From Acidisphaera sp. L21 (GTDB taxonomy: Bacteria > Pseudomonadota > Alphaproteobacteria > Acetobacterales > Acetobacteraceae), in the NCBI RefSeq assembly GCF_009765685.1, contig NZ_LMUY01000043.1:1120-65119 (forward strand): a stretch of DNA of 64,000 nucleotides, read 5' to 3'. The notes under the pieces were generated by a model that was given only the letters and a program-made list of their open reading frames with translations, was not told the origin of the DNA and searched no databases. A program made the translations under genes and the position numbers. The number at the start of each line of letters is the position of its first letter. Position 1 is the stretch's first letter. Below are positions 2,400 through 58,179 of the stretch, one piece after another.

Positions 2400-3068
2400 C
2401 TAAACACGTTGTAGAATGTTGCGCACAGCCGTTGCCGTCCATGCCCCAGCGCGAGGCGTGCGAATGCCCTTCTCCGTGAGTTCCGAAGCGATGGATCGCA
2501 GGCTTTGACCTGCAGAGCGCATCTCAGCGGCAATCGGTCCAACTTGCGCTGCAAAGGCATCTGCCCGCGCCATCACCGCTTGCGTGCCAAGATGGCCCTC
2601 GACCTTGGGACCACCTTTCCAGCCCCCCAGGACCACGCCACGTGCCCTTGCAGCTGCCAAGGCTGCCTTGGTGCGTGCCGAGATCGCCCGACGCTCCTCC
2701 TGCGCCACGACCGCCAGAATGCCGACGGTCAGATCGTTGGCACTCGGCATGTCGGCGGCAATGAACGGCACCGACCCCTTTTGGAGACCCAGCAGGAAGT
2801 GGGCATCGCGTGACAGACGATCTAGCTTGGCAATGACCAGGGTTGCCCCTGTAAGCCGGCATTGCTGAAGGGCTCGGGCGAGCTGGGGACGATCGTTGTT
2901 CTTGCCGCTCTCTACCTCTGTGAACTCGGCAGTGAGGCTCCACGAACCCCCGTTGAGATAGCTGCGCACTGCTTCGCGCTGAGCTTCCAGCCCTAGTCCA
3001 CTGGCCCCCTGCTTGGCGGTGCTCACGCGATAGTATGCAACCCAGCGACCCTCAGCCATTTGTATCAA
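2400..3068 (-). CDS. Serine recombinase (resolvase/invertase family)
   Basis: N-terminal YYRVSTAKQ catalytic-serine motif, LDRLSRD motif, C-terminal HTH (RSIASELTEKGIRTPRAGAWTATAVRNIL). 222 aa. Confidence 0.85.
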   Translation of the reverse strand: MIQMAEGRWVAYYRVSTAKQGASGLGLEAQREAVRSYLNGGSWSLTAEFTEVESGKNNDRPQLARALQQCRLTGATLVIAKLDRLSRDAHFLLGLQKGSVPFIAADMPSANDLTVGILAVVAQEERRAISARTKAALAAARARGVVLGGWKGGPKVEGHLGTQAVMARADAFAAQVGPIAAEMRSAGQSLRSIASELTEKGIRTPRAGAWTATAVRNILQRV

Positions 3069-3617: not shown

Positions 3618-6600
3618 ATGCCAAGTCGCCGCGTCCACGGTGACAAAGGTCGCCGTCTCGGGGAAAATGCCATGCCAACCAATGTGACTGCGCCTCCCAC
3701 CGGGTCGACTATGGAAGATGAGGTTACTTACGTTAGCGGCATCACGAACACGGGCACTGTTGCAGCGATTAGTGGCCTAACCTGGAACGGCGACGGCTCA
3801 GACTCGAGCACTCCAGACGCCGTGGCGACCTACAATCAAACCATGTCCACAGCATCTAAATGGGGTCCGAGTGAGACACCAGGCACAAGCGGCGGCACGC
3901 AGCTGTATTATTTCGATCCTGCGTCCGACTGGACACCAGCCGAGCAGTCGATCCTGGCAGGAGGACTTGCGCTCTGGTCAGCAGAGTCGAACATTCAGTT
4001 CGCCGTGACGACAAATCGCTCTGCGGCCACGCTTGACTTCATCCGCGGTAATACCGGGTCGGAGTTTGAAACCGGCGGCACTGCCCCGGGAGAGCTGATC
4101 GGCGCTACGACGTTGGGCGGCAGTCAGGGAGCAAACGTCAGCATTAACGTGACGACAAACTCGCCAGCGAGCGGCTTCGGACCAATAAGCTTTTCCTCCG
4201 ATACATACCCTATTGACGCTCTAATCCACGAAGAAGGCCATTTTCTCGGCTTCTATCATGGCGGCCCATATAATGGTGACGTCAATTCCGCGACACAACA
4301 ATACAGCCCATACGACAACCGGTTGTATAGCATTATGTCATACATCGATCCGGAAGATACGACAGCCAAGTATTACGGCAGCTATACGGTCACGGGCACT
4401 TCCTGGAACAACAATGACCCAACAACGCCTCAGATGCTCGACATCTTGGCGGCCCAACGCCTTTACGGCGCACCGACAACAACTCCACTTTCAGGGGGCC
4501 AGGTTTTCGGCTTCAATACTAATATCACGGGCCTGATTCAGCAATTCTTCGATTTCACGATCAACACTGCTCCAGTGATTACTCTGTTCGATACGGGCAC
4601 GAACAATACGCTCGACCTCTCTGGTTATGCCACCGCCGAGAAGGTGAACCTAAATGCGGGCACGTTCAGCAGCTTTGACGGCATGGTTAACAACCTGGGT
4701 ATCGCTTTCGCCACGGCGATCGACAACTTTGTCGGCGGCACGGGTGGCACCGAAGTCACCACAAATACCGATGCCGACACAATCACCGACACTGGCTTCG
4801 GCAACATCGTCGACTTCTCCGGGACCTTGGCAAGTTACCTGCTGGTGCTCGGTGGCGCGGCAAAGGTTCTTGTCACCAGTATCGCGTCGGGCATCACCGA
4901 TATCCTGAACGGTGTGCAGACGCTGGCGTTCAGCGACCAGTCGGTCCAGACCAGTGTCCTCACCGTGGCACCAACCGTCACCCTCGCCACCGCCCCGACC
5001 GCGACCAATGTGGTGAAAGCCACCCTGGGCACGGTGAGCGCCGCAAATGCGGCCACCGCTTCCGACCCGATCACCGTAACGCTGACGTCGGATGCCGACT
5101 TCAGCACGGGCAGCTCGATCGTGATTACCGGCGGCAAGCTGATCTACACGCCGGGCGTGGTCACGGCTGCCAAGGCCGGGTCGGACGTGATCAAATACGT
5201 CGTTACGGACACCACAACTGGAGCCTCCGTAAACGAGACGCAGACCGTCACCTTAGGCAACGGGCCAGCGCCCACTGTGATCCTCGCCACGTCACCGTCT
5301 GCAAGCAGCACCGCGACAGCCACTCTCGGCACGGCCATTCCAGGCGTTACGGGCGATGCCTTGGTGGTGACGCTGACCTCGGATGCGGACTTTGCTACGG
5401 GAAGCAAAGTGACGCTCTCCAATGGCAATCTGGTTTACACCCCAGGCACGATTACAGCGGCCAATGCCGGCTCGGACGCACTGAAGTATTCCGTGACCGA
5501 TAGCGTCACGGGCGCCGTCACCATGGAGACACAGAACGTCACGCTGGTGGCTGCTACAACGGGTCCAAATCCCCCGGTGACGATCGGCAGTGGGCCGCAG
5601 AGCTTCGTTCTGAACATGTCCGAAGATGCTTACATGGGGAACGCTCAGTTCACGGTCGCCGTGAATGGCACCCAGGTCGGCGGAACCCAAACTACGACGG
5701 CCTTGCACTCCATGGGTCAAGATCAGGCCTTCACGGTGGCCGGTAGCTTCGGCACGCAGCCCTACACCGTCACCGTCGATTTCCTGAATGACGCCTACGG
5801 TGGAACGGCTACCACTGACCGTAACCTTTATGTCGACACGACAACGGTCGGTGGTGTCACTCAAAACACGAATGCGGCGCTGCTGAGTTCTGGCTCGGTG
5901 TCCTTCTCGGTCGGGTCGGCCGGAACGTCTGCTCCCGTCACCATTGGCTCGGGGCCTGATACACTGGCGCTGCAGGTGTCTGGGGACGCCTACATGGGCG
6001 ATCCGCAGTTCACCGTCGCCGTGAACGGAAGCCAAATTGGCGGGGTCCAGACGGCAACAGCGTCCCATCTTGCTGGCGCGTCGCAGACCTTCAACGTCAT
6101 GGGCAACTTCGCAGGCCCAGGCTCGGCTACCATCACCTTCCTCAATGATGCCTACGGCGGAACGGCGGCAACTGACGTCAATCTCTACGAGACCGGCGCA
6201 ACCATCAACGGGAAGACGATCAGCGGTGCTCCCCTAACCGAGTTGAGCGATGGTTCCATGACCTTCCAGTTCCCAGGGTCGAACACGACGAACGCCGCCA
6301 CCAGCACCATCCTCGGGCTCTCCGAGGATGCCTACATGGGTGACGCGCAATACACGGTCTCGATCGACGGCAAGGCAGCTTCAATGCCGGCTTTCGTGAC
6401 GGCGCTTCACTCAGCGGGTGCTTCCCAGGCGCTCAGCCTGGGCACGCTGACGGCGGGCTCGCATGACATTGCGGTCTCGTTCCTCAACGACGCCTACGGC
6501 GGAACGGCGGCGACCGACAAGAACCTCTACGTCACCGGCATCGCCGTGAATGGCAGTGTTGTGCCGAACTCTACGGCTTCCCTCCTCGGTGACATGACCA

Positions 6601-6629
6601 CCCACTTCACAGTGAACGTGCCTCACTAG
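3618..6629 (+). CDS. Large metzincin zinc-metalloprotease (serralysin-like HExxHxxGxxH + SIMSY Met-turn) with Ig-like and triplicated C-terminal repeat domains
   Basis: ALIHEEGHFLGFYH = HExxHxxGxxH; SIMSY Met-turn ~25 aa downstream. Two ~95-aa Ig-like repeats (TVTLTSDADF[SA]TGS...) follow. Then three ~115-aa tandem repeats, each with [EG]DAYMG[ND][AP]Q[FY]TV...FLNDAYGGTA[AT]TD.NLY. More likely start is ATG 3672 (MPTNVT..., RBS GGGGAA 6 nt upstream). No N-terminal signal peptide and no GGxGxD RTX nonapeptides seen. Confidence 0.8.
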   Translation: MPSRRVHGDKGRRLGENAMPTNVTAPPTGSTMEDEVTYVSGITNTGTVAAISGLTWNGDGSDSSTPDAVATYNQTMSTASKWGPSETPGTSGGTQLYYFDPASDWTPAEQSILAGGLALWSAESNIQFAVTTNRSAATLDFIRGNTGSEFETGGTAPGELIGATTLGGSQGANVSINVTTNSPASGFGPISFSSDTYPIDALIHEEGHFLGFYHGGPYNGDVNSATQQYSPYDNRLYSIMSYIDPEDTTAKYYGSYTVTGTSWNNNDPTTPQMLDILAAQRLYGAPTTTPLSGGQVFGFNTNITGLIQQFFDFTINTAPVITLFDTGTNNTLDLSGYATAEKVNLNAGTFSSFDGMVNNLGIAFATAIDNFVGGTGGTEVTTNTDADTITDTGFGNIVDFSGTLASYLLVLGGAAKVLVTSIASGITDILNGVQTLAFSDQSVQTSVLTVAPTVTLATAPTATNVVKATLGTVSAANAATASDPITVTLTSDADFSTGSSIVITGGKLIYTPGVVTAAKAGSDVIKYVVTDTTTGASVNETQTVTLGNGPAPTVILATSPSASSTATATLGTAIPGVTGDALVVTLTSDADFATGSKVTLSNGNLVYTPGTITAANAGSDALKYSVTDSVTGAVTMETQNVTLVAATTGPNPPVTIGSGPQSFVLNMSEDAYMGNAQFTVAVNGTQVGGTQTTTALHSMGQDQAFTVAGSFGTQPYTVTVDFLNDAYGGTATTDRNLYVDTTTVGGVTQNTNAALLSSGSVSFSVGSAGTSAPVTIGSGPDTLALQVSGDAYMGDPQFTVAVNGSQIGGVQTATASHLAGASQTFNVMGNFAGPGSATITFLNDAYGGTAATDVNLYETGATINGKTISGAPLTELSDGSMTFQFPGSNTTNAATSTILGLSEDAYMGDAQYTVSIDGKAASMPAFVTALHSAGASQALSLGTLTAGSHDIAVSFLNDAYGGTAATDKNLYVTGIAVNGSVVPNSTASLLGDMTTHFTVNVPH

Positions 6630-6768: not shown

Positions 6769-8283
6769 CTACGCGGCGGCTCTAACCGTTTCCACGAAGT
6801 GGTTGACCACCTCGTTCAGCTTGTCCGATCGGCCTGACAAGCGCGAGACAGCCTGCTGCGCGTTGGACGCCGCATGGTCAGTCTGCGACGTGCTGTGGGC
6901 CAACCGCTCCAAATTCGAGGCAATGGCGTCGCTGCTACTAGCAGCCTGCTGCACGCCGGAGGCTATCTCCCGCGTGGCATGGCCCTGTTCCTGGATCGAT
7001 GCGGCAACATGGTCCGTGACAACACCTAAATTAGCCAGCGACCGGGCGATGGAGCCGATTGCATCGACCGCCGGGCCTGTGCGGGCCTGAATGGTCGCGA
7101 CGTGGCCCTGCACATCGATCGTGGCCCGCGCCGTTTGCGCCGCCAATGCCTTCACCTCTCCAGCGACCACCGCAAACCCACGGCCCGCCTCCCCTGCACG
7201 TGCAGCCTCAATGGACGCGTTCAGAGCCAGTAGATTGGTCTTTCTCGCAATGCCGTGGATCATGCTCACGACTTCGCCAATCCTGCTGGCGGCGTCGGCT
7301 AGGTCAGCAACGGCGGTGCGGGTTTGCTCTGCGGCGACGCTAGTATCACGTGCTGCGGTTGCCGCTGAAGCCATTTCCGCCGACAAGCCAGATACGCTGT
7401 CCGTAAGCCGCCCAGCCGCCTTAGCAACTGAGATGACGCTGATGGCGGTTTGCTGCGAGGCGGCCGCGATGGCTGCCGTCTGCTCAGACGTGTCGCTAGC
7501 AATACCGGACAGGTTGGACGCGGATGCCTGCATTTCCACGGTGGTGACGAGCATCTCGCCGACTACCTTGGTCACCGTATCCTGAAAGCGGCTGGCCAGG
7601 TTAGTCGCAACTTCTTGTCGCGTCAGCATTGCCAGACGTTTGGCTTCCAATGCGGCAGACGCGGCGCGCTGTTCGGCAAGATGAATTTGCGTCGACAAGC
7701 TGGTCTGACTTTCCAGTAACTGCCCGACCTTGTGGGTGGCCCACATCAGCGTTACGGCCTCCAGAACGAGGATGACAGCATGCAGTAGCACACGCATGAT
7801 ATTGGGACCGCCGGGGTAAACAAGGGCTGAGAGGAACTCGTTCAACGTCAGATGGTGCAACGCCACTGTCACACATGCCAGCCCAACGACTCGCCAATCG
7901 CAATAGGCGCTCAGTAGCGCAAGTCCGGCGAAGAAATACATGTGAATGTCGATTTGCCAGGGTTGCGCTGCCGCTTCACCGAGCAGCACTGCAATCGAAC
8001 CCATCAACGCCACAGCGACCGTCAATCGCGTTGCTAATCCCGTCCCGAATACTGCCCAGGTAAGCGATGCCCAAACTGCCAGCCCCGCGCTCGACAAGCC
8101 AACCGATATCGGCTCGATCCCCTGGAACAGAGCGACCGCGATGCAAAGCGGCACCTGGGCCCATAACAGCGCCTGCAGGCCGCGATTGGCGAGACGGCGG
8201 ATGGTTTGAAGCTCAATGTCGCTAGCGTGAGAAGATAGCTTCGGGCTAAGCGACACCACACCACTCTCCCACAATGGCTTCAC
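6769..8283 (-). CDS. Methyl-accepting chemotaxis protein with multi-TM N-terminal sensor region
   Basis: Conserved MCP signalling hairpin [36 protein letters not shown]-terminal ~190 aa holds 5-6 hydrophobic helices. Confidence 0.85.
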
Positions 8284-10193: not shown

Positions 10194-10862
10194 GTGGTTT
10201 CAGCTCCTGTTAGCACAGGTATGTCGGTAGTTCTAAATGGACAGTTCGCGCCTTGGACTTTCCGTCCTGACTTTCTTGCACGCGAGGGGTTTCTCACGCC
10301 TGAAGAAGCTGATGGCGCAATCAATCCAATTCTAAGTGCCGAATTCGTTCAATTTAAATTGTCGTGGGTGATGTTGACGGCAGAACTTCAACGACTCTCT
10401 ATTGCAACAATAGAAGAGCCTTATATTCGCATTCATGACCTTGTCTTGTCATATTTGACGCTGATGCCGCTTACCCCAGTATTGCATGTGGGCATCAATC
10501 GCAATGCTCATTTCCTGTGTAGTGGCACAAGGGAGTGGCATGAAATCGGTGATCGCCTCGCGCCAAAGGGCCCATGGGGAGAATTTGCTGAGGGGGAGGG
10601 CGTGACAAAGTCCGGATTGCGTAGCATGACGTTTGAAAGACCTCGCGATCCCAAAAGCGAGCTTCCCGGGCGCACGAGGGTGACGATTGAGCCATCGATG
10701 GTGCACAATCCGGGAATTTACATCGACGTGAATGATCATTACGACATCGTCGATGGTGGGCTACCCGGGAGCAGCGCCCGAGCTATGGAGCTTATTCAGA
10801 GACGGTGGGAGGTGAGCGAGGCAACACTGTCTCAAATTGCTCACAAAGTATTGGGGGCATAA
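10194..10862 (+). CDS. Hypothetical protein, first gene of a 3-gene low-GC cassette
   Basis: GTG start with RBS GGGAAGG 6 nt upstream. 222 aa, no recognisable motif. Stop TAA is immediately followed by the ATG of the next gene (translational coupling). Confidence 0.55.
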   Translation: MVSAPVSTGMSVVLNGQFAPWTFRPDFLAREGFLTPEEADGAINPILSAEFVQFKLSWVMLTAELQRLSIATIEEPYIRIHDLVLSYLTLMPLTPVLHVGINRNAHFLCSGTREWHEIGDRLAPKGPWGEFAEGEGVTKSGLRSMTFERPRDPKSELPGRTRVTIEPSMVHNPGIYIDVNDHYDIVDGGLPGSSARAMELIQRRWEVSEATLSQIAHKVLGA

Positions 10863-11441
10863 ATGAGCGCTTCAGTTGCCTACCAAACGCCGATCGCCCC
10901 GCAAGAACCACGCAACCCAACTCTGCATAAAGGGGTAACGGACTATGTGGACTCGAGACGTAAGCCTCCGCAAAGAGTTGCAGAGGTCCTACGAGCTGCA
11001 CGAGCACGGGTAAACAAGCCGGCATTTGGAACGCGTGAGGCCGAAGATAGCCCCGGTAAGGCTGACGTAACGCTAGCAAGCTCTGAGAGCGCAAATCTCC
11101 CTGCGCAATCGATTAGAGAGGACGTGATCCAGAGATGGGAAGGGAGAGTAACGTCTCTTGGATTGCATACATTTACGGCATCTTTAGTTGATGTTACAGC
11201 TGGGCATAAGATCGAGACTGAAGAGATTGAGTTACCATATGAAGAGATTCAGTTAGGAGATGTAAAAAGTCTTCGGATTGGTTCGATATTTGTTTGGCTT
11301 ATCGGGCATAGATACAATTCTGGATCCAGAGAGAAATTTGTCAGACTCATTGTTCGAAGGCTGCCGGCTTGGACACGAAGTGATTTAGAAAATGCTCGAG
11401 AAAAAGCCGCTAATTACTCCAAACTCATTGAATGGGAGTAA
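10863..11441 (+). CDS. Hypothetical protein, second gene of the cassette
   Basis: ATG abuts the upstream stop. 192 aa, no recognisable family. Its 3' end overlaps the start of the MBL gene. Confidence 0.5.
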   Translation: MSASVAYQTPIAPQEPRNPTLHKGVTDYVDSRRKPPQRVAEVLRAARARVNKPAFGTREAEDSPGKADVTLASSESANLPAQSIREDVIQRWEGRVTSLGLHTFTASLVDVTAGHKIETEEIELPYEEIQLGDVKSLRIGSIFVWLIGHRYNSGSREKFVRLIVRRLPAWTRSDLENAREKAANYSKLIEWE

Positions 11442-12564
11442 CCAAGATAGTCCACCTCATCCAGACCAAATCGAGGTAACTCTGATCGGCCCAGGCTACG
11501 GCGAGTGCGTTTGCATCCATATTGGTGCCGGAGAATGGATCGTCGTTGATAGTTGCATCAACTCAGGAAGCACAGAGCCCGCATCTGTCACCTACCTAAA
11601 CAGTATCGGCGTTGATCCCGGCCAGGCCGTAAAGCTTCTTGTTGCAACTCATTGGCATGACGATCATTGTCGTGGGCTGTCAAAATCACTCGAAGCATTT
11701 GGCTCTGCACAATTCGTGATGGCGAGTGTCCTGTCGCGTGACGAGTTTTCAACATTCGCGTCGGGATATGACGAGCGCCCCACCGCGAAAGTTGGGTCAA
11801 AGGTAACTGAAATCAACCAAGTATTTACTGCACTGACACAAGGACCTACACCTCGTCGAAAGGTTCGGCGAGCAAGCCAAGGTCGTGTGCTCCTTTCGAC
11901 AATAACCGGATCTACGACCTCGCGCGTCCAGTGTTGTGTGACGGCGCTGTCGCCTTCCGATCTCGCAGAGAGTGACTTCCTAGCGCGGCTAGCTGAAGAA
12001 ATGCCCAGTATTCGCAGAACAAAAAAAGCTGCGCCGGATATTTCTCCAAACGACGCGTCAGTAGCACTCTGGGTTGAAGTTGGAGATCGAGCAATTCTCC
12101 TCGGGGCAGATCTCGAAGAGTCCGGGCATCCTGAGCGAGGTTGGAGCGCCATTTTAGATGCGAACAATTTGCCCGTTGGAAAGGCTGATTTGTTCAAAGT
12201 GTCTCACCATGGTTCGTCGAACGGGCACCACCCAGAATTATGGAAAAAGAAGCTTAAGCCAGGCTCGCTCGCTGCGTTAACGCCATGGTCGCGTAATAAG
12301 GGGTTGCCCACGTCAGCCGACATTCGACGGCTTGATGGATTTACAAAGGGTGGGTTTGCAACAGCAAAAACGTTTCCGAACAGCGCGAGTTCAAAACCCG
12401 CAATCGTCCGATCCTATCTACGCCAACAGCGCTTAAGGCTCAGATCTTTAAATGAAGGCTTTGGAATGGTGAGGTTTCGCACGTCACCCCATCGGAGAGA
12501 TGGGGCATGGTGCATCGAGCTCTTCGACGGGGCTTGTAACATCATCAATTTACTAACTGCCTAG
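11392..12564 (+). CDS. MBL-fold metallo-hydrolase, ComEC/Rec2-C-terminal-like (COG2333-type) putative nuclease
   Basis: ATHWHDDHCRGL (HxHxDH zinc motif) and KVSHHGSSNGH (the HHGS motif typical of the ComEC beta-lactamase-like domain). 390 aa from ATG 11392; alternative TTG 11428. Overlaps the upstream gene. Confidence 0.75.
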   Translation: MLEKKPLITPNSLNGSNQDSPPHPDQIEVTLIGPGYGECVCIHIGAGEWIVVDSCINSGSTEPASVTYLNSIGVDPGQAVKLLVATHWHDDHCRGLSKSLEAFGSAQFVMASVLSRDEFSTFASGYDERPTAKVGSKVTEINQVFTALTQGPTPRRKVRRASQGRVLLSTITGSTTSRVQCCVTALSPSDLAESDFLARLAEEMPSIRRTKKAAPDISPNDASVALWVEVGDRAILLGADLEESGHPERGWSAILDANNLPVGKADLFKVSHHGSSNGHHPELWKKKLKPGSLAALTPWSRNKGLPTSADIRRLDGFTKGGFATAKTFPNSASSKPAIVRSYLRQQRLRLRSLNEGFGMVRFRTSPHRRDGAWCIELFDGACNIINLLTA

Positions 12565-15499: not shown

Positions 15500-16180
15500 A
15501 TGTCGACATGCTTATACAGGAATATGAAGATGGATATTCAAACCGCACGCTCAGCCTTTGCCGTTCTTAGCCTTTCAGGACGCCTAGAGGTTATCCAGAC
15601 CCTCGCTAAGCACGAACCTCATGGTCTCACTGTTGGACAGATTGCTACAATCGTCGACAGAAGTCAGCCGCATACGTCGAAGTATCTAACCACCTTGTTC
15701 ACCGCCGGATTGGTCACAAGGGGACCCCGTAGCCGCACCACGATCTATCACGCTAATTCAGGCAAGCTTTCAGAACTGAAATCGCTTTTAGGTCCACAGG
15801 CTGAGATTGTGCTTTTTCCCGATATCGTTGCTAAAGCCGCGCCCGGAAATATCGCTCCACCAAATAAACCTTCAGCCGAGAATGACGGGCGGTCTTCCAT
15901 TGCGGCAGAGATAAGAGAAATCGAACGTCAAGATGACAAGAGCCGTTGGCTTTCTGATGAGGAGTTAGATGAACTAGACGAATTTCAAACGGCCAACAGA
16001 ATGAAGGCTGTGGCCTTGGAGGCAACGATCAGCAAAGGCGTAACGGAGGAAAAGAAACGCATACTGGAGATGGAGATTAGTGTTCTCATGGAAGATCCCA
16101 GGATGAAAGTTTATATAAGCGATCAACTGATCGAACGAAACAGTTCAAGAGAATTAGATCTGCTTCTCGCAGATCTGTAG
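15500..16180 (+). CDS. ArsR/SmtB-family HTH regulator with long acidic C-terminal extension
   Basis: ARSAFAVLSLSGRLEVIQTLAKHEPHGLTVGQIATIVDRSQPHTSKYLTTLFTAGLVTR is a typical ArsR wHTH. The C-terminal ~120 aa is acidic/coiled (DEELDELDEF...). Confidence 0.6.
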   Translation: MSTCLYRNMKMDIQTARSAFAVLSLSGRLEVIQTLAKHEPHGLTVGQIATIVDRSQPHTSKYLTTLFTAGLVTRGPRSRTTIYHANSGKLSELKSLLGPQAEIVLFPDIVAKAAPGNIAPPNKPSAENDGRSSIAAEIREIERQDDKSRWLSDEELDELDEFQTANRMKAVALEATISKGVTEEKKRILEMEISVLMEDPRMKVYISDQLIERNSSRELDLLLADL

Positions 16181-18210: not shown

Positions 18211-18340
18211 AAGCTGACGACGGGGAATTGGCCCCGCCATTAAACCAGGAGAGTAATGATGCACCATCAGTTCCACCTTGGTTGTTCGTCACTCGGATTG
18301 TCAAGGTCAGTGGGACCATTCCACACGAGATGAGGCCCGC
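18211..18340 (+). repeat. Dispersed repeat A, copy 1 (5' segment of small-gene family incl. RBS AGGAGA + ATGATG)
   Basis: ~80% identical by eye to 22468-22600 outside a central indel. Shared blocks: agctgacgacggggaat, ccaggagagt[ag]atgatg, tcgtcactc[gt]gattgtcaaggt[ct]agt. Confidence 0.8.
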
Positions 18341-20476: not shown

Positions 20477-20634
20477 ATGTCCAGCTATCTCGGCAAGCTG
20501 ACACGCGCCAAGCTGCTGAGGCAGAGCGGAGCGGTGATAGCATTTTCTACCATCTTGAATGCCTGGCGATCGGCGTGGTGTTGTTTCTCGTCAACTCGGT
20601 TGAGCTCGACTGGAAGAAGCTCAAGCGCAGCTAA
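20477..20634 (+). pseudogene. 5'-truncated, frameshifted fragment of the small-gene family (ArsR-like C-terminal half: ...LGKLTRAKLLRQSGAVI / FYHLECLAIGVVLFLVNSVELDWKKLKRS*)
   Basis: Frame A gives MSSYLGKLTRAKLLRQSGAVIAF. A +1 shift at ~20540 continues IFYHLECLAIGVVLFLVNSVELDWKKLKRS*, which matches the C-terminus encoded at 22600-22713 (GKARAKRGQHH...VVRFVVDSVELDLRMLKRS*). Confidence 0.35.
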
Positions 20635-20761
20635 GCCGGCGTGCTGGGAGGTTATCGACGGGATCCCATCGCCAGTCGGCCCACGGAGCCTGGCAGAACA
20701 CTGTTCTGGATCATGCACCATTGATCCCGTAACCAAATATTTATCGGCAGAAGGTAAACAT

Positions 20762-22467: not shown

Positions 22468-22713
22468 GAGCTGACGACGGGGAATGAGCCCTGCCGTCAA
22501 TCCAGGAGAGTGATGATGGAGAAGCGTTATTAGCTCCTACTGTGGTTAGTCGTCACTCTGATTGTCAAGGTTAGTAGGGGCATTCCCCACGGGAAGGCCA
22601 GAGCGAAACGGGGGCAACACCATCTATCATCCAGGCGTCTCTCGCTTGGCAGTGTGGTGAGGTTTGTCGTTGATTCAGTGGAACTCGATTTGAGGATGCT
22701 CAAGCGCAGCTGA
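22468..22713 (+). repeat. Dispersed repeat A+B, copy 2: internally deleted, start-less copy of the small-gene family
   Basis: 5' part matches 18211-18340. 3' part (22674-22713) matches 20596-20634 at both DNA and peptide level (both end ...LKRS*). Frame reads LLLWLVVTLIVKVSRGIPHGKARAKRGQHH...VDSVELDLRMLKRS* with no ATG/GTG/TTG start. Confidence 0.7.
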
Positions 22714-23394
22714 GTTGGTCCACTCCTTACTCACTGGCACGAACGGTGGTTGGGGAGAGCCACCCACAACGGCAGTCTTGCCGAAACAAGGCTCAAGACG
22801 CGCCTAGAAGCGTTCCAAGGGCGCCCAGCGAGTCTCTGATGCGTCGTCTCGGGACAGTCCAGTGGCGGAAGGCGTCCACCGAATACCATCTTGGTCATTC
22901 CAAGCCTTAGATCGCGGTCTCGGGCTACGTCGGCGATTGCTCGGGAAGTTGTCGAACTGCACGGCGAGAAAAGAACATCCGTGCTCATCACATGTTCCAC
23001 AGCCGCGCTGAACGGCCCTGCCGGCTTGTCAAATTGGCACCTGATGGCGACCCTTGCTCTGTAACACAATCTGCTACACGCTCAGTCCGAAGCTGGGATG
23101 CAGCAAGCGACAAACGTCTGATCGAACTTCCTAAAATCTAGGTGGTGGAGGGTCCAACCCCCTCCACCATTCCGGGATCTGGACCCTTCCGACCGTCAGC
23201 CTAGCCGAGGGATGGAGGGAAGCTGCGATAGCAGCCGCGACCAAAAAGGATTTAGGTGGCGCTTCAGCTCGGTCATTATCCGCGATGGTTCGTGGGTCCG
23301 ATGATACGAGAGCAGTCTGCAATGCCCCTCACCGTCTCGCCACTCGATCATGGCCGCTCAATTTGGTGTCGATCAAGCCATCGCTGATCGGCCA

Positions 23395-25594: not shown

Positions 25595-28500
25595 TTGACT
25601 CTGTTCGACCTCGCAACGTTCGATGGCCCCGCAACCGTTTGGGTGGAGGCGATGGCAAATCGTATATGGCGGGGCGGAAATGGCGACTGGTATGACGCCA
25701 GCAACTGGCTGACCAGTTCCGGCCCGGCGAACTATCCCCTCCCCGGCGATACCGTCACGATCGCCAGCGGCGACATCGATCTGATTGGTAGCGAGGCCAA
25801 GGATAACGGGACATTCGACGCCGATGCGGTGACGCTCGGCACCTCTGGTGGTCTGGAGACGACGCTCACCGCGATCGATGCGATCCTGAACCACAATTTC
25901 ACCGTCACCGCCGCTGGGTCTGCCACCATTCTGGCGGTTGGGCAGTCCATCATCGAGGGTAGCATCACGGCTGGTGTTGCAGGCGCCACCTTCACGCTCG
26001 CGAGCGTGGCCAATGGCAGCGAGCCGGGCAATCTGGTGTTCACCCGCGGCTCCAGCCTGACCATCAGCGGCACCGAGACACTCGACCTCGAGGGCAACAT
26101 CACGGTTGAGGCCGGGTCCGGCTTCATAACCCCGTCCACAGTCAACGTGGTGAACAACGGGACCGTCAGCCAGATCGGCGCCGCCGATACGATCGATGGC
26201 AGCCTGGCGGGAACCGGCACGTGGGAGCTCACATTCTCGACCAGCCTCCTGCTGGCGGGGAGCGTCTCGGCCGGCCAGGATTTCACCTTCGGGTTGGATG
26301 GGCGGCTTCGGCTTGCCGACCCGACGGCATTCGATGGCTCCATCGGCGGCTTCACGCCGGGCAACCTGATCGACTTCACGACCATCAGTGCCAGCAACGT
26401 CAGCTACGATGCCGCGACGGGCACATTGACGCTGAACAATGGCACTGGCAGCCCAGCGCTGGCCACGATCGACCACGTGACGGCCGCCGCGGGCACGATG
26501 GTCGCGACATCCGACGGCAATGGCGGCACGTTGGTCAGCTACACCGACACGTCCACCCGGCAGCGCTACGAGAACGCCGGTGCGGACGACGCGATGCGAT
26601 CCAACGTCGTCCGGGATACGATGACGGTGCCGGGCACGACGACGCCGATCACGGGCGCCGGGGTGAAGATCGGCATCATTTCCGACAGTTTCGACGAGGC
26701 GAGCCCTGGCAGCGCCAATACCGACGCCGCCAACGGCTATTTACCCGAGTCGGGCGGCAAATCGGCGGTTACCGTCCTGACCGAAGGCGGGACTGGATCG
26801 TCGGACGAAGGCCGCGCGATGGCCGAGCTGATCTACCAGGCGGCACCCGGCGCGCAGCTGTATTTTTCCGCCGCCGGCGACAGCGAGGCGGCGATGGCGA
26901 GTTCCATCAACGGCCTCGTCGCGGCGGGCTGCAACATCATCGTCGACGACATCAGCTTTCTCGACACACCCATGTACCAGGTCGACGGGACGCTGGACAC
27001 CGCGGTCAGCAACGCCATCGGCGACGGCGTAGATTACTTCACCTCGGCCGGCAATTTTGGCGACTCGTTCCTCGACCAGAGTTTCGCCCCGGCAACGACG
27101 ACCCTGCACGATGGCACGGTGGCGAACGAGCATGTGTTCAGCAACGGCACGGCCTACGAGTCCATCACCGTGCCTGCCTCGACGTCGACCCAGATCGATC
27201 TGCAATGGACGGCCGCCTATGAAGGGCTGGGCGACACCGGCGCGCCGGATGCGCTGACGTTCAAGGTCTTCGATGCCTCGGGTACATTGGTGGCGACGTC
27301 CACGCAGGCGAGCGAAGGGGCGCTGACAACCGACATCTCCGCGTCCTTGCCAACATCCGGCGCGGCGACACCATACCAACTTGCCGTCTATCTGAATGGC
27401 GGGCAGGTCCAGCCGAGCGGCTTCAAGCTGGTGCTATCGGCCACCGGCAACGGATCCGGACCCGGCGGCGTGATCGACGACCCACAGGCCGCAAGCGGCT
27501 CGGGCGATATACGGGGGCAGGAACTCATCCCGGGCGTCAACACGGTCGGGGCCACGTATTACGGGGACAGCGCCGCCTTCGGGCAGACGCCGGACGCGAC
27601 GGAGTATTACTCCGACAGTGGCACCGGCACGTTGCTGTATGCCAGCGATGGTACACCCCTCGCCACGCCGGAGAGCGCGGGCAAGGTCGATTTCGTGGCG
27701 CCTGACGGGGTGAACACCACCGTTCCCGAACTCGCCTCGTTCTTCGGGACCTCCGCCGCAGCGCCAGATGCGGCGGCGGTGGCCGCGCTGATGCTGCAGG
27801 CCGAGCCGTCGCTGACCACCGCGCAAGTCTCGGACGATTTGGCCGGGTCGGCGATAAGCCTGGGTTTGTCCCCCGCGGCGCAGGGGGCGGGCCTGATCCA
27901 GGCGGATCGTGCCGTGGCCCTGGCGGAGGGGATTGCTTGCTACGTAGCCGGTACCCAGATCTTGACGGTTCGCGGCGAGGTTGCGGTGGAGGCATTGGCG
28001 CCGGGTGACATGGCGGTCACCGCCAACGGTGCACACCGCCCGATCATCTGGATGGGTCATCGGCGACTCGACTGCCGCAACCATCCGCGCCCGGCGACAG
28101 TCTGGCCGGTGCGGGTGGAGGCCGGCGCATTCGGCCGTGGCCTGCCGCACCATGATTTATGGCTGAGCCCCGGCCATGCCGTGTTGATCGAGGGGGCTCT
28201 GCTGCCGGTGGAGCGGTTGATCAACGGCGCCACCGTCACATCCGTGCCGGTCGATAGCGTAACGTATTGGCACGTGGAGTTGGATCGGCACGACGTGATC
28301 TTCGCCAACGGCGCCGCGGCGGAGAGCTACCTCGATACCGGCAACCGGTCCGCGTTCGGAAACGGCGGCGACGCGTTGGCACTGCATCCGGATTTTTCGT
28401 CCACGGCGGACATGGCGCTGCGCAAGACCTTCCCCGTGTCGAAGCAGGCGACGACGGCGGCGCGGGCCAAGATCCTGGGGGTTGCAGGCCTGCTCGGATA

Positions 28501-28927
28501 CGCGCTGACAGCAGATGTCGCGCTGCACATCCTAGTCGACGGCGTTGCCCTCGCGCCGAGCCGGGTCGAGGGCAATGCCTTCGTGTTCGAGCTACCGCCG
28601 GCTTATGGCGAGGCTTGGCTGGCGTCTTCGCACTTCGTTCCGGCGCAGATGCGGCCGAATATGACCGACTTGCGCCGATTGGGTGTGCGGCTGTCCGGCC
28701 TTTGGGTGGACGGAACCAGAGTGCCGCTCGCGAACTTGCCGGACGAGGGTTGGCATAAGCTGGAGGTCGCTCGCGGCAAGGTTGCGGGTGAGGCGCGCTG
28801 GACCAACGGGCGCGGCCGGCTGCCGGAAGGCGGGCGGCTGGTCCGGATCGAACTGATCCAGGAATTGCGGGCCTGGGTCCGGGCTGACAGGAGCCCGGCT
28901 CGTGCGACGAGTCAGTCAGCCGCCTAG
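25595..28927 (+). CDS. Large exported multi-domain protein: N-terminal beta-helix-like repeats, subtilisin (S8) peptidase domain, Hint (Hedgehog/intein) domain
   Basis: S8 motifs VKIGIISDSFD (Asp), HGT-region, GTSAAAPDAAAVAALM (Ser). Hint domain CYVAGTQILTVRGE...HAVLIEGALLPVERL...HDVIFANGAAAESY. TTG start at 25595. 1110 aa. No classical signal peptide. Confidence 0.85.
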   Translation: MTLFDLATFDGPATVWVEAMANRIWRGGNGDWYDASNWLTSSGPANYPLPGDTVTIASGDIDLIGSEAKDNGTFDADAVTLGTSGGLETTLTAIDAILNHNFTVTAAGSATILAVGQSIIEGSITAGVAGATFTLASVANGSEPGNLVFTRGSSLTISGTETLDLEGNITVEAGSGFITPSTVNVVNNGTVSQIGAADTIDGSLAGTGTWELTFSTSLLLAGSVSAGQDFTFGLDGRLRLADPTAFDGSIGGFTPGNLIDFTTISASNVSYDAATGTLTLNNGTGSPALATIDHVTAAAGTMVATSDGNGGTLVSYTDTSTRQRYENAGADDAMRSNVVRDTMTVPGTTTPITGAGVKIGIISDSFDEASPGSANTDAANGYLPESGGKSAVTVLTEGGTGSSDEGRAMAELIYQAAPGAQLYFSAAGDSEAAMASSINGLVAAGCNIIVDDISFLDTPMYQVDGTLDTAVSNAIGDGVDYFTSAGNFGDSFLDQSFAPATTTLHDGTVANEHVFSNGTAYESITVPASTSTQIDLQWTAAYEGLGDTGAPDALTFKVFDASGTLVATSTQASEGALTTDISASLPTSGAATPYQLAVYLNGGQVQPSGFKLVLSATGNGSGPGGVIDDPQAASGSGDIRGQELIPGVNTVGATYYGDSAAFGQTPDATEYYSDSGTGTLLYASDGTPLATPESAGKVDFVAPDGVNTTVPELASFFGTSAAAPDAAAVAALMLQAEPSLTTAQVSDDLAGSAISLGLSPAAQGAGLIQADRAVALAEGIACYVAGTQILTVRGEVAVEALAPGDMAVTANGAHRPIIWMGHRRLDCRNHPRPATVWPVRVEAGAFGRGLPHHDLWLSPGHAVLIEGALLPVERLINGATVTSVPVDSVTYWHVELDRHDVIFANGAAAESYLDTGNRSAFGNGGDALALHPDFSSTADMALRKTFPVSKQATTAARAKILGVAGLLGYALTADVALHILVDGVALAPSRVEGNAFVFELPPAYGEAWLASSHFVPAQMRPNMTDLRRLGVRLSGLWVDGTRVPLANLPDEGWHKLEVARGKVAGEARWTNGRGRLPEGGRLVRIELIQELRAWVRADRSPARATSQSAA

Positions 28928-57050: not shown

Positions 57051-58087
57051 CAGTGGGGCAGCACGCGGCAATCGGCCGGGTCGGCGTGCAGATGCACGTG
57101 GGTGCCGATTGTGAAGGCGGACGCGGCGGCGGGGGAGAGGTGGGCGCAGACGATGCCACCGGGCGTGGCCATTTGCAGTTCCACCATGGCGCCCAAAAAG
57201 CGGCGTCCGGTGATCGGCATGCCATTGGCGGCGGGGCTGACGCGGAGTTTGTCGAACGGCACCTGGACGACGCTGCCGGGTGGGGCGCCGGGGAGGATGC
57301 TGGCGGCGTCGCCGCGCAACAGGTTGCCAGCGCCGACGAACTCGCACACCCAGGCGGAGTTGGGGGCGGCGAACAAGCTCTCCGGCGTGTCGATCTGGGC
57401 GATTTTTCCGTCACGCATCACGACGATGCGGTCGGCCATGGACATCGCCTCCTCCTGATCGTGGGTGACGAACAGAGCGGTGACGCCGAGGCGGCGTTGC
57501 AGGGCTTTGAGTTCGGTTTGCATCTGCACGCGGAGCTGTTTGTCCAGGGCGCCGAGCGGTTCGTCCAGGAGTAGGAGGTCGGGTTCGATGACGATGGCGC
57601 GGGCCAAGGCGACGCGTTGTTGTTGGCCGCCGGAGAGTTGTTTGGGGCGGCGGTCGGCGAAGGCGGACAGGCCCACCAGGCCGATCGCGTCGCGGGCGCG
57701 CTGGGTGGCGGCAGATTTGGGGATGCCGCGGCATTCGAGGCCGAATAGCACGTTCTGCAGCACGCTCATGTGCGGGAACAGGGCGTAGGACTGGAAGACG
57801 ATGCCGATGTTGCGGTGGCGCGGTGCCAGCCCGGCGACGTCGCGCCCGTTCAGCCGCACGGCGCCCTGCTGGGGATGAACGAAGCCGGCGATGGTCCGCA
57901 GCAGCGACGTTTTGCCGCAGCCGGACGGGCCGAGCAGGGCCACGAATTCGCCGCTTGCCACTTCCAGGTCTATGCCCTGCAGCGCCGCGACGCCGCCATA
58001 TTGAAGCTGTATGCCGGCCACGGCCAAGGAGGGTTGGGTTGTTGACGTCGTCTCGGGCGCGCGCATGGTGGGGAGGCGTAGCAACAT
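57050..58087 (-). CDS. ABC transporter ATP-binding protein (PotA-like)
   Basis: Walker A GPSGCGKTS, signature LSGGQQQRVALARA, Walker B LLLLDEP. C-terminal TOBE-like domain. Confidence 0.9.
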   Translation of the reverse strand: MLLRLPTMRAPETTSTTQPSLAVAGIQLQYGGVAALQGIDLEVASGEFVALLGPSGCGKTSLLRTIAGFVHPQQGAVRLNGRDVAGLAPRHRNIGIVFQSYALFPHMSVLQNVLFGLECRGIPKSAATQRARDAIGLVGLSAFADRRPKQLSGGQQQRVALARAIVIEPDLLLLDEPLGALDKQLRVQMQTELKALQRRLGVTALFVTHDQEEAMSMADRIVVMRDGKIAQIDTPESLFAAPNSAWVCEFVGAGNLLRGDAASILPGAPPGSVVQVPFDKLRVSPAANGMPITGRRFLGAMVELQMATPGGIVCAHLSPAAASAFTIGTHVHLHADPADCRVLPH

Positions 58088-58179
58088 CCATACCCCGCCG
58101 AAACCCTGCGTCGACAGGGGGCGAGCGCGCCTGTATTCCTGGGCACCATCAATCCGTCGCCGGCAGATCGGGGCCTTGG

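What the first reader, a model, noticed from the sequence alone, without database searches (positions are those of the whole stretch)
3618..6629. 1003-aa metzincin with triplicated ~115-aa DAYMG...FLNDAYGG...NLY repeat and no visible secretion signal
The catalytic core is textbook (HEEGHFLGFYH plus SIMSY Met-turn). However there is no N-terminal signal peptide and none of the GGxGxD calcium-binding nonapeptides expected for T1SS-secreted serralysins. No T1SS genes are nearby. The C-terminal half consists of two Ig-like repeats and three near-identical repeats, which are also near-identical at DNA level (for example ctcaatgatgcctacggcggaacggcggcaactgac at ~6140 and ~6485). That makes the locus recombination-prone. 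The repeat looks carbohydrate-binding-like but I cannot assign it. The gene sits in the island next to the recombinases.
Basis: partly seen in the sequence, partly recalled or inferred. Interest (0 to 1): 0.55.

Follow-up and report, generated by a model that had tools for sequence, protein, structure and literature searches.

The report
Leaderless serralysin-type protease with CBM60 tail
This gene in an Acidisphaera genomic island encodes an intact zinc protease of the serralysin type whose usual calcium-repeat secretion tail is replaced by two cadherin-like spacers and three sugar-binding CBM60 modules, a swappable tail found on over a thousand signal-peptide-less enzymes in related bacteria, so it is a mosaic variant of a known kind and not a new system.

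Summary
The ORF (3618-6629, +) is real. NCBI annotates it in Acidisphaera sp. L21 as 985 aa, starting at Met19.

**Architecture**
- The head is a serralysin-type M10 domain (HEEGHFLGFYH, SIMSY) followed by a truncated, RTX-free beta-roll stub.
- Two cadherin/Ig-like domains follow.

- There is no signal peptide.
- There is no GGxGxD motif.
- There are no T1SS genes in the window.

- The repeats are not near-identical: 41-54% aa and 49-57% nt identity, longest shared exact run 20 nt.
- A relative diverged by 12% in DNA keeps all three copies.

**New findings**
- The cadherin-like + CBM60 tail is a shuffled cassette. The relative carries it at 88% nt identity behind an S8-like protease head.
- The CBM60 cassette sits on more than 1000 leaderless, mostly Cys-free enzymes (GH16, GH5, GH26, GDSL...).
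- Sister M10 proteins carry RTX or Hint_2 tails in the same position.

**Interpretation**
- It is most likely exported by an unlinked, multi-substrate T1SS (PrsDE-like) and tethered to a polysaccharide matrix.
- Export route and ligand are inferred, not shown.
- It is a new variant of a known kind, of moderate interest.

The parts
3618..6629 (+). Longest ORF (1003 aa plus stop) for the mosaic M10 protease. The first in-frame start after an upstream stop is at 3618, so no longer N-terminus is possible.
3672..3674 (+). Probable true start codon (Met19, giving 985 aa). It matches the NCBI model P0001 and places the conserved family N-terminal motif (EDEV-x-[YF]-[VI]-SG ... WNGD) about 13 residues from the start, as in homologs.
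3714..4493 (+). Serralysin-type (M10B-like) N-terminal segment and catalytic domain, aa 33-292. It aligns to solved serralysins, AprA and PrtC with E about 1e-23.
4227..4259 (+). Zinc-binding motif HEEGHFLGFYH (aa 204-214).
4329..4343 (+). Met-turn SIMSY (aa 238-242), with the Tyr typical of serralysins and astacins. It aligns to SVMSY of serralysin.
4494..4961 (+). Truncated, degenerate beta-roll stub (aa 293-448). Peptidase_M10_C matches only profile positions 8-95 of 193. 'GGTGGTEVT' and 'TGFGNIVDF' stand where serralysins have GGxGxD, so there is no canonical RTX motif.
4962..5255 (+). Cadherin/Ig-like beta-sandwich repeat 1 (aa 449-546).
5262..5552 (+). Cadherin/Ig-like beta-sandwich repeat 2 (aa 549-645), 57% identical to repeat 1.
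5580..5927 (+). CBM60 repeat R1 (aa 655-770).
5928..6281 (+). CBM60 repeat R2 (aa 771-888).
6282..6626 (+). CBM60 repeat R3 (aa 889-1003). It ends at the protein's C-terminus (…THFTVNVPH), as in most carriers of the cassette. It is the candidate site of an uncleaved C-terminal export signal (inferred).
4965..6628 (+). Mosaic tail segment (2 cadherin-like + 3 CBM60) shared at 87.8% nt identity with contig L086, where it follows an unrelated S8-like head. Homology starts at the domain boundary (aa 450) and stops at the stop codon. GC is 0.62 here against 0.557 in the head.

Best explanation
The gene encodes a catalytically intact, extracellular serralysin-type zinc metalloprotease built by domain shuffling.

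Shown:
- The M10 head and the first ~45% of the serralysin C-terminal domain are retained.
- The RTX beta-roll and C-terminal tail of classical serralysins are replaced by a 1.66-kb cassette of two cadherin-like spacers and three CBM60 (Ca-dependent carbohydrate-binding) modules.
- The cassette circulates among different enzyme heads.

Inferred:
- The protein leaves the cell without Sec, most likely through an unlinked, broad-specificity type I secretion system of the AprD/PrsDE kind that recognises the uncleaved C-terminal region.
- The triple CBM60 then tethers the protease, in a Ca-dependent and multivalent way, to a polysaccharide matrix. That matrix could be the cell's own exopolysaccharide or other beta-glycans in its habitat, where the enzyme would degrade matrix or cell-wall proteins.
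For: Head:
- It has the zinc motif and a Met-turn with Tyr, and matches solved serralysins at E about 1e-23.
- It is 45-62% identical to hundreds of alphaproteobacterial M10 proteins.

Tail:
- The middle repeats model at pLDDT 89.9 and match cadherin EC, SraP and GH107 Ig-like domains at E down to 1.5e-7.

Leaderless family:
- 1 of 120 M10 homologs and 2 of 94 Met-initiated CBM60-cassette carriers have a hydrophobic N-terminus.
- 93 of 120 carriers have no Cys. The query has 0 Cys, with D+E 76 against K+R 23.
- In 80 of 120 carriers the cassette ends within 5 aa of the C-terminus. K+R+E make up 2.4% of the last 20 residues. This matches the published K/R/E depletion and beta-strand enrichment of T1SS C-termini (PMC8861453).

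Tail interchangeability:
- The same M10 head family carries RTX tails or Hint_2 tails.
- P0327 and P0349 are M10 head + stub + cadherin-like domains + terminal RTX. P0006 is head + 2 cadherin-like repeats + RTX-type tail.
- The cadherin-like + CBM60 tail follows an S8-like head in L086 and a GDSL head in P0273.

Precedent:
- Rhizobium PrsDE exports at least 13 unlinked substrates with no predicted signal peptide. They include cadherin-like proteins, non-RTX glycanases and a Zn-metalloprotease-RTX protein (PMC2275737; PMC3034196).

Ligand hint:
- Cassette genes recur next to EPS biosynthesis and export genes.
- Cassette partners are mostly glycoside hydrolases.
Against: - No T1SS gene lies in the 64-kb window.
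- T1SS genes are not linked to cassette genes elsewhere. Only 1 of 80 loci (L048) has a C39-ABC/ABC pair within 10 kb. None lies next to the closest M10 homologs.
- The protein has no RTX motif, whereas 110 of 120 relatives have at least one.
- It ends in ...VPH, and only 6% of carriers end in the [FLI][VAI] dipeptide typical of T1SS cargo.
- The terminal repeat R3 is not more conserved than R1 or R2.
- I could not check whether the L21 genome has a T1SS at all.
- Ca and ligand-binding residues of CBM60 could not be mapped because the paper is not held.
- Profile-to-PDB sequence searches do not reach the solved CBM60, so this subfamily is distant from the characterised xylan-binding modules.
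- No signal-peptide predictor was available. The leaderless call rests on hydropathy and on family comparison.
Confidence: 0.6

Rival explanations
1. The CBM60 triple cassette is itself the export module. It would be a non-RTX, Ca-dependent C-terminal domain that stays unfolded in the low-Ca cytoplasm, is threaded by a T1SS-like exporter and folds outside the cell. It would functionally replace the RTX beta-roll across a large family of Acetobacteraceae and Methylobacterium exoenzymes, with carbohydrate binding secondary or absent.
For: - The cassette occupies the position taken by RTX blocks in sister proteins.
- It is C-terminal in 80 of 120 carriers, on leaderless, Cys-free proteins with many unrelated heads.
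- More than 1000 protein hits and 476 loci exist in reference genomes, often several per genome.
- CBM60 is a Ca-dependent fold (Pfam description; PMC4444583 figure legend).
- The repeat's invariant residues are Asp/Asn-rich (ND...DRNLY).
Against: - 40 of 120 carriers have the cassette in N-terminal or internal position.
- There is no linkage to exporter genes.
- R3 shows no extra constraint.
- Cassette-only proteins and GH partners fit a plain lectin or CBM role equally well.
- No experiment or literature bears on this.
Confidence: 0.3
2. The protein is exported or released by a route other than T1SS (vesicles, lysis, or an unrecognised system), and the T1SS-like features are only family inheritance.
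For: - No T1SS genes are linked, either here or around 80 cassette loci.
- There is no RTX motif and no [FLI][VAI] end.
Against: - The head family includes many RTX-bearing members.
- Unlinked cargo is documented for PrsDE.
- The composition (acidic, Cys-free, K/R/E-poor C-terminus) matches T1SS cargo.
- No feature of any other secretion system was seen.
Confidence: 0.2
3. This is the first reader's view: a recently triplicated, near-identical repeat array that makes the locus recombination-prone with variable copy number.
For: - Short conserved DNA cores of 50-65 nt share 66-82% identity.
- Repeats within one protein are on average slightly more alike (0.48-0.54) than same-position repeats in different proteins (0.45-0.50). 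This allows occasional intragenic conversion over evolutionary time.
Against: - Whole repeats are 49-57% identical in DNA, with at most 20 nt of exact match.
- TRF finds nothing.
- For 51 of 69 repeats, the nearest relative in another protein sits at the same position, so the triple unit is old.
- A homolog at 88% nt identity has the same three repeats.
Confidence: 0.05
4. The gene is a non-functional mosaic remnant carried on a mobile island.
For: - It lies in a low-GC island beside two recombinases.
- The related copy in L086 is split by a 1-nt deletion and flanked by IS elements.
- The exact architecture is unique among all retrieved proteins.
Against: - The 3-kb ORF is uninterrupted, with all catalytic residues and all seven domains intact.
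- The models are confident.
- The L086 frameshift may be an assembly error.
Confidence: 0.07

Closest known systems
Serralysins (MEROPS M10B: Serratia serralysin, Pseudomonas AprA, Dickeya PrtC)
   Same: - It has the HEXXHXXGXXH zinc site and an SxMSY Met-turn with Tyr.
- Homology runs across the catalytic domain and the start of the C-terminal domain (E about 1e-23).
- It has no signal peptide.
   Different: - It has no GGxGxD repeats, and only profile positions 8-95 of 193 of Peptidase_M10_C.
- The last ~95 residues of AprA (RTX repeats plus signal) are replaced by cadherin-like and CBM60 domains.
- No adjacent aprDEF or inhibitor genes are present.
- It scores far below the NCBIfam serralysin cut-off (111 against 500 bits).
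CBM60 (Cellvibrio japonicus xylanase module; PDB 2XFD/2XHH)
   Same: - It matches the same Pfam family at 136 bits.
- The family is Ca-dependent.
   Different: - Here it forms a tandem triple cassette on leaderless proteins of Acetobacteraceae and Methylobacterium, attached to a protease and not a Sec-exported xylanase.
- It is too divergent to be found by sequence search against the solved structure.
- Its ligand is unknown.
Rhizobium leguminosarum PrsDE (T1SS) substrates: Rap cadherin-like Ca-lectins, PlyA/PlyB glycanases, RL0790 metalloprotease-RTX
   Same: - These are alphaproteobacterial exoproteins without signal peptides, encoded at scattered loci.
- They contain cadherin-like and carbohydrate-binding or processing domains.
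- Some lack RTX repeats.
- They are linked to the cell's own EPS.
   Different: - No sequence relationship was tested here beyond domain types.
- PrsDE dependence is experimental in Rhizobium and only inferred for this protein.
- The Rhizobium substrates are not reported to carry CBM60.
Sister proteins from public assemblies: P0006 (M10 head + 2 cadherin-like + RTX-type tail), P0327/P0349 (M10 + cadherin-like + terminal RTX), P0298 in L086 (S8-like head + identical tail), P0273 (GDSL + cadherin-like + 3 CBM60)
   Same: - Heads are shared at 45-62% aa identity.
- The tail is shared at 83-96% aa identity (L086).
- The module order is the same: head, spacer, terminal Ca-binding block.
   Different: None of the 361 retrieved proteins combines this serralysin-type head with the CBM60 cassette.

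Membership tests
Serralysin (M10B) | Zinc motif HEXXHXXGXXH | tested here: met
   HEEGHFLGFYH is at aa 204-214 and aligns to HEIGHTLGLSH of solved serralysins.
Serralysin (M10B) | Met-turn SxMSY with Tyr as fifth zinc ligand | tested here: met
   SIMSY is at aa 238-242 and aligns to SVMSY.
Serralysin (M10B) | C-terminal RTX beta-roll with GGxGxD nonapeptides | tested here: not met
   There are no GGxGxD matches. Peptidase_M10_C covers only positions 8-95 of 193. 110 of 120 relatives have at least one such motif.
Serralysin (M10B) | Reaches the curated family score (NCBIfam NF035945 serralysin subfamily) | tested here: not met
   It scores 111 bits against a cut-off of 500.
Serralysin (M10B) | Operon with a dedicated T1SS (ABC, MFP, OMP) and/or inhibitor | tested here: not met
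   No such genes are in the 64-kb window. The rest of the genome was not available.
CBM60 | Matches Pfam PF16841 above the gathering score | tested here: met
   It scores 136.2 bits against 28.2, with three stretches.
CBM60 | CBM60 beta-sandwich fold | tested here: met
   [not shown]
CBM60 | Conserved Ca and ligand-coordinating residues; Ca-dependent glycan binding | not testable with these tools
   The defining paper (PMC2951246) is not held. Only the invariant N-D...D-R-N-L-Y motif can be noted. Binding needs experiment.
CBM60 | Appended to Sec-exported glycoside hydrolases (the characterised context) | tested here: not met
   Here it sits on a leaderless protease. In relatives it sits on leaderless GH16, GH5, GH26, GDSL, S8-like and M10 heads, or stands alone.
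Type I secretion substrate | No cleavable N-terminal signal; acidic; few or no Cys | tested here: met
   Maximum hydropathy in the first 100 aa is 0.84, with 0 Cys and D+E 76 against K+R 23. The pattern holds family-wide.
Type I secretion substrate | C-terminal uncleaved signal (K/R/E/P-poor, beta-rich, often ending [FLI][VAI]) | tested here: inconclusive
   The last 20 residues have no K, R or E and are beta-strand in the model. But the protein ends ...VPH, and only 6% of carriers end [FLI][VAI].
Type I secretion substrate | Export depends on an ABC/MFP/TolC system | not testable with these tools
   This needs the whole genome and genetics. Linkage analysis is negative but uninformative, because PrsDE cargo is also unlinked.
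Cadherin-like / bacterial Ig (Big_9-type) domains | Tandem seven-strand beta-sandwich fold | tested here: met
   The model has pLDDT 89.9. There are 147 PDB matches at E of 1e-3 or better, topped by GH107 Ig-like domains, protocadherin EC repeats and SraP. One homolog carries PF17963. The query itself has no Pfam hit.

The most novel reading that the evidence does not exclude
The triple CBM60-like cassette, with or without cadherin-like spacers, is a previously unrecognised non-RTX, Ca-dependent C-terminal export-and-anchoring module. A multi-substrate type I (or T1SS-like) exporter in Acetobacteraceae, Methylobacterium and allies would recognise it. It would define a regulon-like family of more than 1000 leaderless exoenzymes and lectins that act on the cells' own exopolysaccharide matrix. 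This protease would be one product of ongoing head/tail shuffling within that family.
Probability: 0.3. Interest if true: 0.65.

Novelty: new variant of a known kind. Interest (0 to 1): 0.4.

Why it matters
Taken alone, the gene is a mosaic extracellular protease and is interesting mainly as annotation. NCBI calls it only a 'carbohydrate-binding domain-containing protein' and misses the protease.

The broader pattern found while checking it is more useful. A conserved CBM60 cassette marks a very large set of signal-peptide-less, cysteine-free enzymes in acidophilic and lichen- or soil-associated alphaproteobacteria. It is interchangeable with RTX and Hint_2 tails on the same heads.

If the cassette turns out to be an export or matrix-anchoring tag, three things would follow:
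- It would extend the rules for recognising non-RTX T1SS cargo, which current predictors handle poorly.
- It would give a handle on how these bacteria build and remodel their polysaccharide matrix.
- It would offer a portable secretion or immobilisation tag.

The recent cassette swap (88% nt identity, with breakpoints at a domain boundary and at the stop codon) is also a clean natural example of domain shuffling.

Tried and rejected
- **Sequence searches against PDB:** the cassette profile and a single repeat both failed to find the solved CBM60.
- **The search for related loci with the 24-sequence alignment:** An 8-sequence alignment worked.
- **Montanier 2010 CBM60 paper:** it could not be read, so Ca-site residues were not mapped.
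- **Look-up of P0001's own contig:** it failed, so the island's left boundary and the rest of the genome could not be examined. The window contains no tRNA.
- **T1SS linkage:** it was tested three ways and rejected as a general feature. The tests were the window ORFs, the flanks of 80 cassette loci, and the flanks of the closest M10 homologs and cassette carriers.
- **Stronger constraint on the terminal repeat:** this idea, which would suggest a signal, was not supported.
- **P0174/P0177 as same-architecture relatives:** rejected, because their M10 head is an unrelated matrixin type.
- **P0273 as a same-architecture relative:** rejected, because it is GDSL + cassette.
- **Literature searches:** CBM60 with type I secretion returned nothing, and Hint-domain exoproteins returned nothing relevant.
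- **Tat signal:** considered because of SRRV/GRRL near the N-terminus. Rejected because no hydrophobic region follows and these residues lie upstream of the likely start.
Full report
**1. Observation**

The ORF is at 3618..6629 on the + strand and encodes 1003 aa. It is 100% identical to a 985-aa NCBI protein from Acidisphaera sp. L21, which NCBI names only 'carbohydrate-binding domain-containing protein'.

The start codon is probably Met19. Homologs begin with a short peptide followed by a conserved '…EDEVAFISGV…WNGD' motif. Here that motif begins at residue 33, so Met19 (nt 3672) is the likely start. Position 3618 is the first possible start after an upstream stop, so no hidden N-terminal extension exists.

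- HEEGHFLGFYH is at aa 204 and SIMSY at aa 238.
- The three repeats carry DAYMG at aa 670/790/904, FLNDAYGG at 722/841/955 and NLY at 736/855/969.
- There are no GGxGxD motifs and no Cys.
- D+E is 76 against K+R 23.
- The most hydrophobic 15-residue window in the first 100 aa has a Kyte-Doolittle mean of only 0.84.

The 'near-identical at DNA level' statement does not hold:
- Aligned repeats share 41-54% aa and 49-57% nt identity, with a longest exact shared run of 20 nt.
- TRF reports nothing.
- Only 50-65-nt cores reach 66-82% identity.
- The quoted 36-mer occurs once, at 6141. Its partner at 6483 matches 32 of 36 bases.

**2. Anatomy**

Head:
- phmmer against PDB aligns residues 116-417 to serralysin, AprA and PrtC at E about 1e-23, with the zinc site and Met-turn in register.
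- NCBIfam's serralysin subfamily model scores 111 bits, far below its 500-bit cut-off.

Beta-roll stub:
- Peptidase_M10_C matches only profile positions 8-95 of 193.
- Where AprA has GGSGSD/GGAGND, this protein has GGTGGT/TGFGNI, so the Asp ligands are lost.
- The beta-roll is therefore a truncated, degenerate stub.

Middle repeats:
- Two ~96-aa repeats, 57% identical to each other, have no Pfam match and only 12 homologs, one of which carries Big_9.
- Their AF2 model (pLDDT 89.9) matches cadherin EC repeats, SraP cadherin-like modules and GH107 Ig-like domains. There are 147 PDB hits at E of 1e-3 or better, the best at 1.5e-7.
- 'Ig-like' is therefore right, and cadherin-like is more precise.

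Triplicated repeat:
- It is Pfam CBM60: E 5.5e-40, 136 bits against a cut-off of 28.2, in three copies.
- Sequence searches do not reach the solved CBM60, and Foldseek on the three-domain model failed.

**3. Surroundings**

- The gene lies in a 25-kb block with GC 0.561, against 0.665 for the rest of the window.
- Its neighbours are a tyrosine integrase (16-1722), a serine recombinase (2400-3068, minus strand) and a convergent methyl-accepting chemotaxis gene (6769-8283, minus strand).
- None of the large ORFs in the window is an ABC exporter, HlyD or TolC protein.
- The only Walker A plus ABC-signature segment is a stand-alone 378-aa ATPase at 57053-58186.
- The window contains no tRNA.

**4. 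Related sequences: heads and tails are shuffled**

The head family:
- The head is 45-62% identical to hundreds of alphaproteobacterial M10 proteins.
- Their C-terminal parts vary: Hint_2, RTX, FG-GAP/VCBS and others.
- 110 of 120 have at least one GGxGxD motif, and only 1 of 120 has a hydrophobic N-terminus.

The cassette family:
- The CBM60 cassette alone finds more than 1050 proteins and 476 confirmed loci in GTDB species representatives.
- These are mostly Acetobacteraceae MAGs, plus Methylobacterium, Roseicella, Paracraurococcus lichenis, Lichenibacterium and Methylosinus, often with several loci per genome.
- Partner domains include GH16, GH5, GH26, Glyco_hydro_cc, phosphoesterase, matrixin-type M10, calpain, SPRY, beta-helix and RTX. 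Many proteins are cassette-only.
- Of 120 carriers, 93 have no Cys. Only 2 of the 94 that start with Met have a hydrophobic N-terminus.
- In 80 of 120 the cassette ends within 5 residues of the C-terminus.

The recent swap:
- Contig L086 carries the same tail (two cadherin-like repeats plus three CBM60) at 83-96% aa and 87.8% nt identity.
- DNA homology starts at nt 4965 (aa 450, the first residue of the first cadherin-like domain) and ends at the stop codon.
- Upstream of the tail, L086 has an unrelated 770-aa head. That head is 41% identical (E 2e-61) to the S8-like head of this window's own S8-Hint_2 protein at 25595-28927.
- GC steps from 0.557 in the head to 0.62 in the tail at the junction.

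The exhaustive search:
- A search of 1.84 billion representatives found 4893 relatives at E of 1e-3 or better.
- The nearest architectures are P0006 (head + 2 cadherin-like + RTX-type tail), P0327 and P0349 (M10 + stub + cadherin-like + terminal RTX) and P0273 (GDSL + cadherin-like + 3 CBM60).

The result is a head-by-tail matrix. Heads are M10, S8-like, GDSL or GH domains. Tails are RTX, Hint_2 or (cadherin-like +) CBM60x3.

**5. Is the locus repeat-unstable?**

- The L086 copy, 12% diverged in DNA, has the same three repeats. It differs by one 9-nt in-frame deletion and one 1-nt deletion that splits its ORF, which is either an assembly error or a pseudogene.
- Across 24 cassette proteins, a repeat's nearest relative in another protein sits at the same position in 51 of 69 cases, against about one third expected by chance. 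The triple unit is therefore old.
- Repeats within one protein are on average slightly more alike (0.48-0.54) than same-position repeats between proteins (0.45-0.50). This leaves room for occasional intragenic conversion over long times.
- There is no support for a currently hypervariable array.

**6. How it most likely works**

Shown:
- The metzincin catalytic core is intact.
- Extracellular-type modules are present.
- There is no Sec, Tat or lipoprotein signal.
- The tail is a CBM60 cassette shared with many glycoside hydrolases.

Inferred export route: an unlinked T1SS. The arguments for it are:
- The head family is the T1SS-exported serralysin family and mostly carries RTX.
- The cassette sits where sister proteins have RTX.
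- The composition is acidic and Cys-free, with a K/R/E-free, beta-strand C-terminus. Published T1SS features match this (PMC8861453; PMC3034196).
- There is a documented alphaproteobacterial precedent. [quoted passage not shown] They include cadherin-like proteins, non-RTX glycanases and a Zn-metalloprotease-RTX protein, all with SignalP probability 0.000 (PMC2275737).

The arguments against it are:
- There is no T1SS linkage anywhere I looked. Only 1 of 80 loci has a linked exporter pair.
- There is no [FLI][VAI] end.
- The terminal repeat is under no extra constraint.

Inferred targeting: the CBM60 triplet gives multivalent, Ca-dependent attachment to a glycan. The partner enzymes are mostly beta-glycanases. 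A recurrent subset of cassette genes lies in exopolysaccharide clusters, although these loci are probably orthologous and therefore not independent. The clusters contain a GNVR co-polymerase, GT2, GT4, a beta-barrel porin, a Wzx-type flippase, a Bac_transf priming transferase and an OpgC acyltransferase. This makes the cell's own EPS a plausible ligand, as for the Rhizobium Rap and Ply proteins.

**7. Comparison and novelty**

- The protein works like a serralysin. It fails two defining membership features: the RTX beta-roll and the curated family score.
- The repeat is a CBM60 by profile and fold, but in an uncharacterised, leaderless, tandem-cassette context.
- No paper in the library links CBM60 with type I secretion or with these bacteria.
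- I rate it a new variant of a known kind.
- The single gene is of modest interest. The family-wide cassette pattern is the part worth following up.

Noticed in passing
window 25595-28927 (+): This 1110-aa ORF has an S8-like subtilase head and a Hint_2 (PF13403, 2.2e-44) tail. It has no obvious signal peptide and sits at the GC jump. Its head is 41% identical to the head that carries the CBM60 tail in contig L086. Hint_2 is also the commonest tail on the closest M10 homologs. It looks like a second member of the same head/tail shuffling system in this genome.
   Followed up: partly
L086 1-16226 (ENA ERZ24894558 ctg22484l): This relative's S8-like-head + cadherin-like + CBM60 gene is split by a single-base deletion (equivalent to window 5681). 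It is flanked by IS21, DDE_3 and rve transposase genes. The deletion is either a pseudogene or a long-read assembly error.
   Followed up: partly
L006 1-6702 and the equivalent blocks in L007, L009, L012, L015; also L001, L002, L017: Cassette-only or cassette-bearing genes recur beside exopolysaccharide biosynthesis and export genes. These include a GNVR co-polymerase, GT2, GT4, a BBP2_2 porin, a Wzx-type flippase, Bac_transf, an OpgC acyltransferase and GDSL. In L002 two CBM60 genes are adjacent.
   Followed up: partly
window 10194-12564 (+): This is a three-gene run: two ORFs with no family match (222 and 192 aa), followed by a 390-aa metallo-beta-lactamase-fold protein. The last has weak PADLOC similarity to LmuA (1.9e-12) and to a DRT-associated MBL. 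It may be defence-island cargo.
   Followed up: partly
window 15500-16180 (+): This 226-aa winged-helix (ArsR/MarR-like) protein has weak similarity to CRISPR-associated Csa3 regulators (1.5e-8). No CRISPR or cas genes were seen nearby.
   Followed up: no
window 18212-18261 / 22469-22518 and 20575-20635 / 22654-22714: Two pairs of 50-61-nt direct repeats (86% and 77% identical) lie 2-4 kb apart inside the low-GC island. This suggests a duplicated small gene or module.
   Followed up: no
window ~25000: GC rises sharply from about 0.56 (1-25 kb) to about 0.67 (25-64 kb). This probably marks the right edge of the island. The left edge lies outside the window, and no tRNA or att-like repeat was found.
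   Followed up: partly
L048 8225-11821 and 15775-20828: This 1198-aa protein has Calx-beta + glucose/sorbosone dehydrogenase + five CBM60 repeats. It lies about 4 kb from a C39-peptidase ABC exporter and a second ABC exporter. This is the only one of 80 cassette loci with a nearby exporter pair.
   Followed up: partly
loci L003-L082 (record titles): Carriers of the cassette are overwhelmingly Acetobacteraceae MAGs. Several named hosts carry lichen-related names (Paracraurococcus lichenis, Lichenibacterium minor), which hints at an ecological association. Sample origins were not checked.
   Followed up: no
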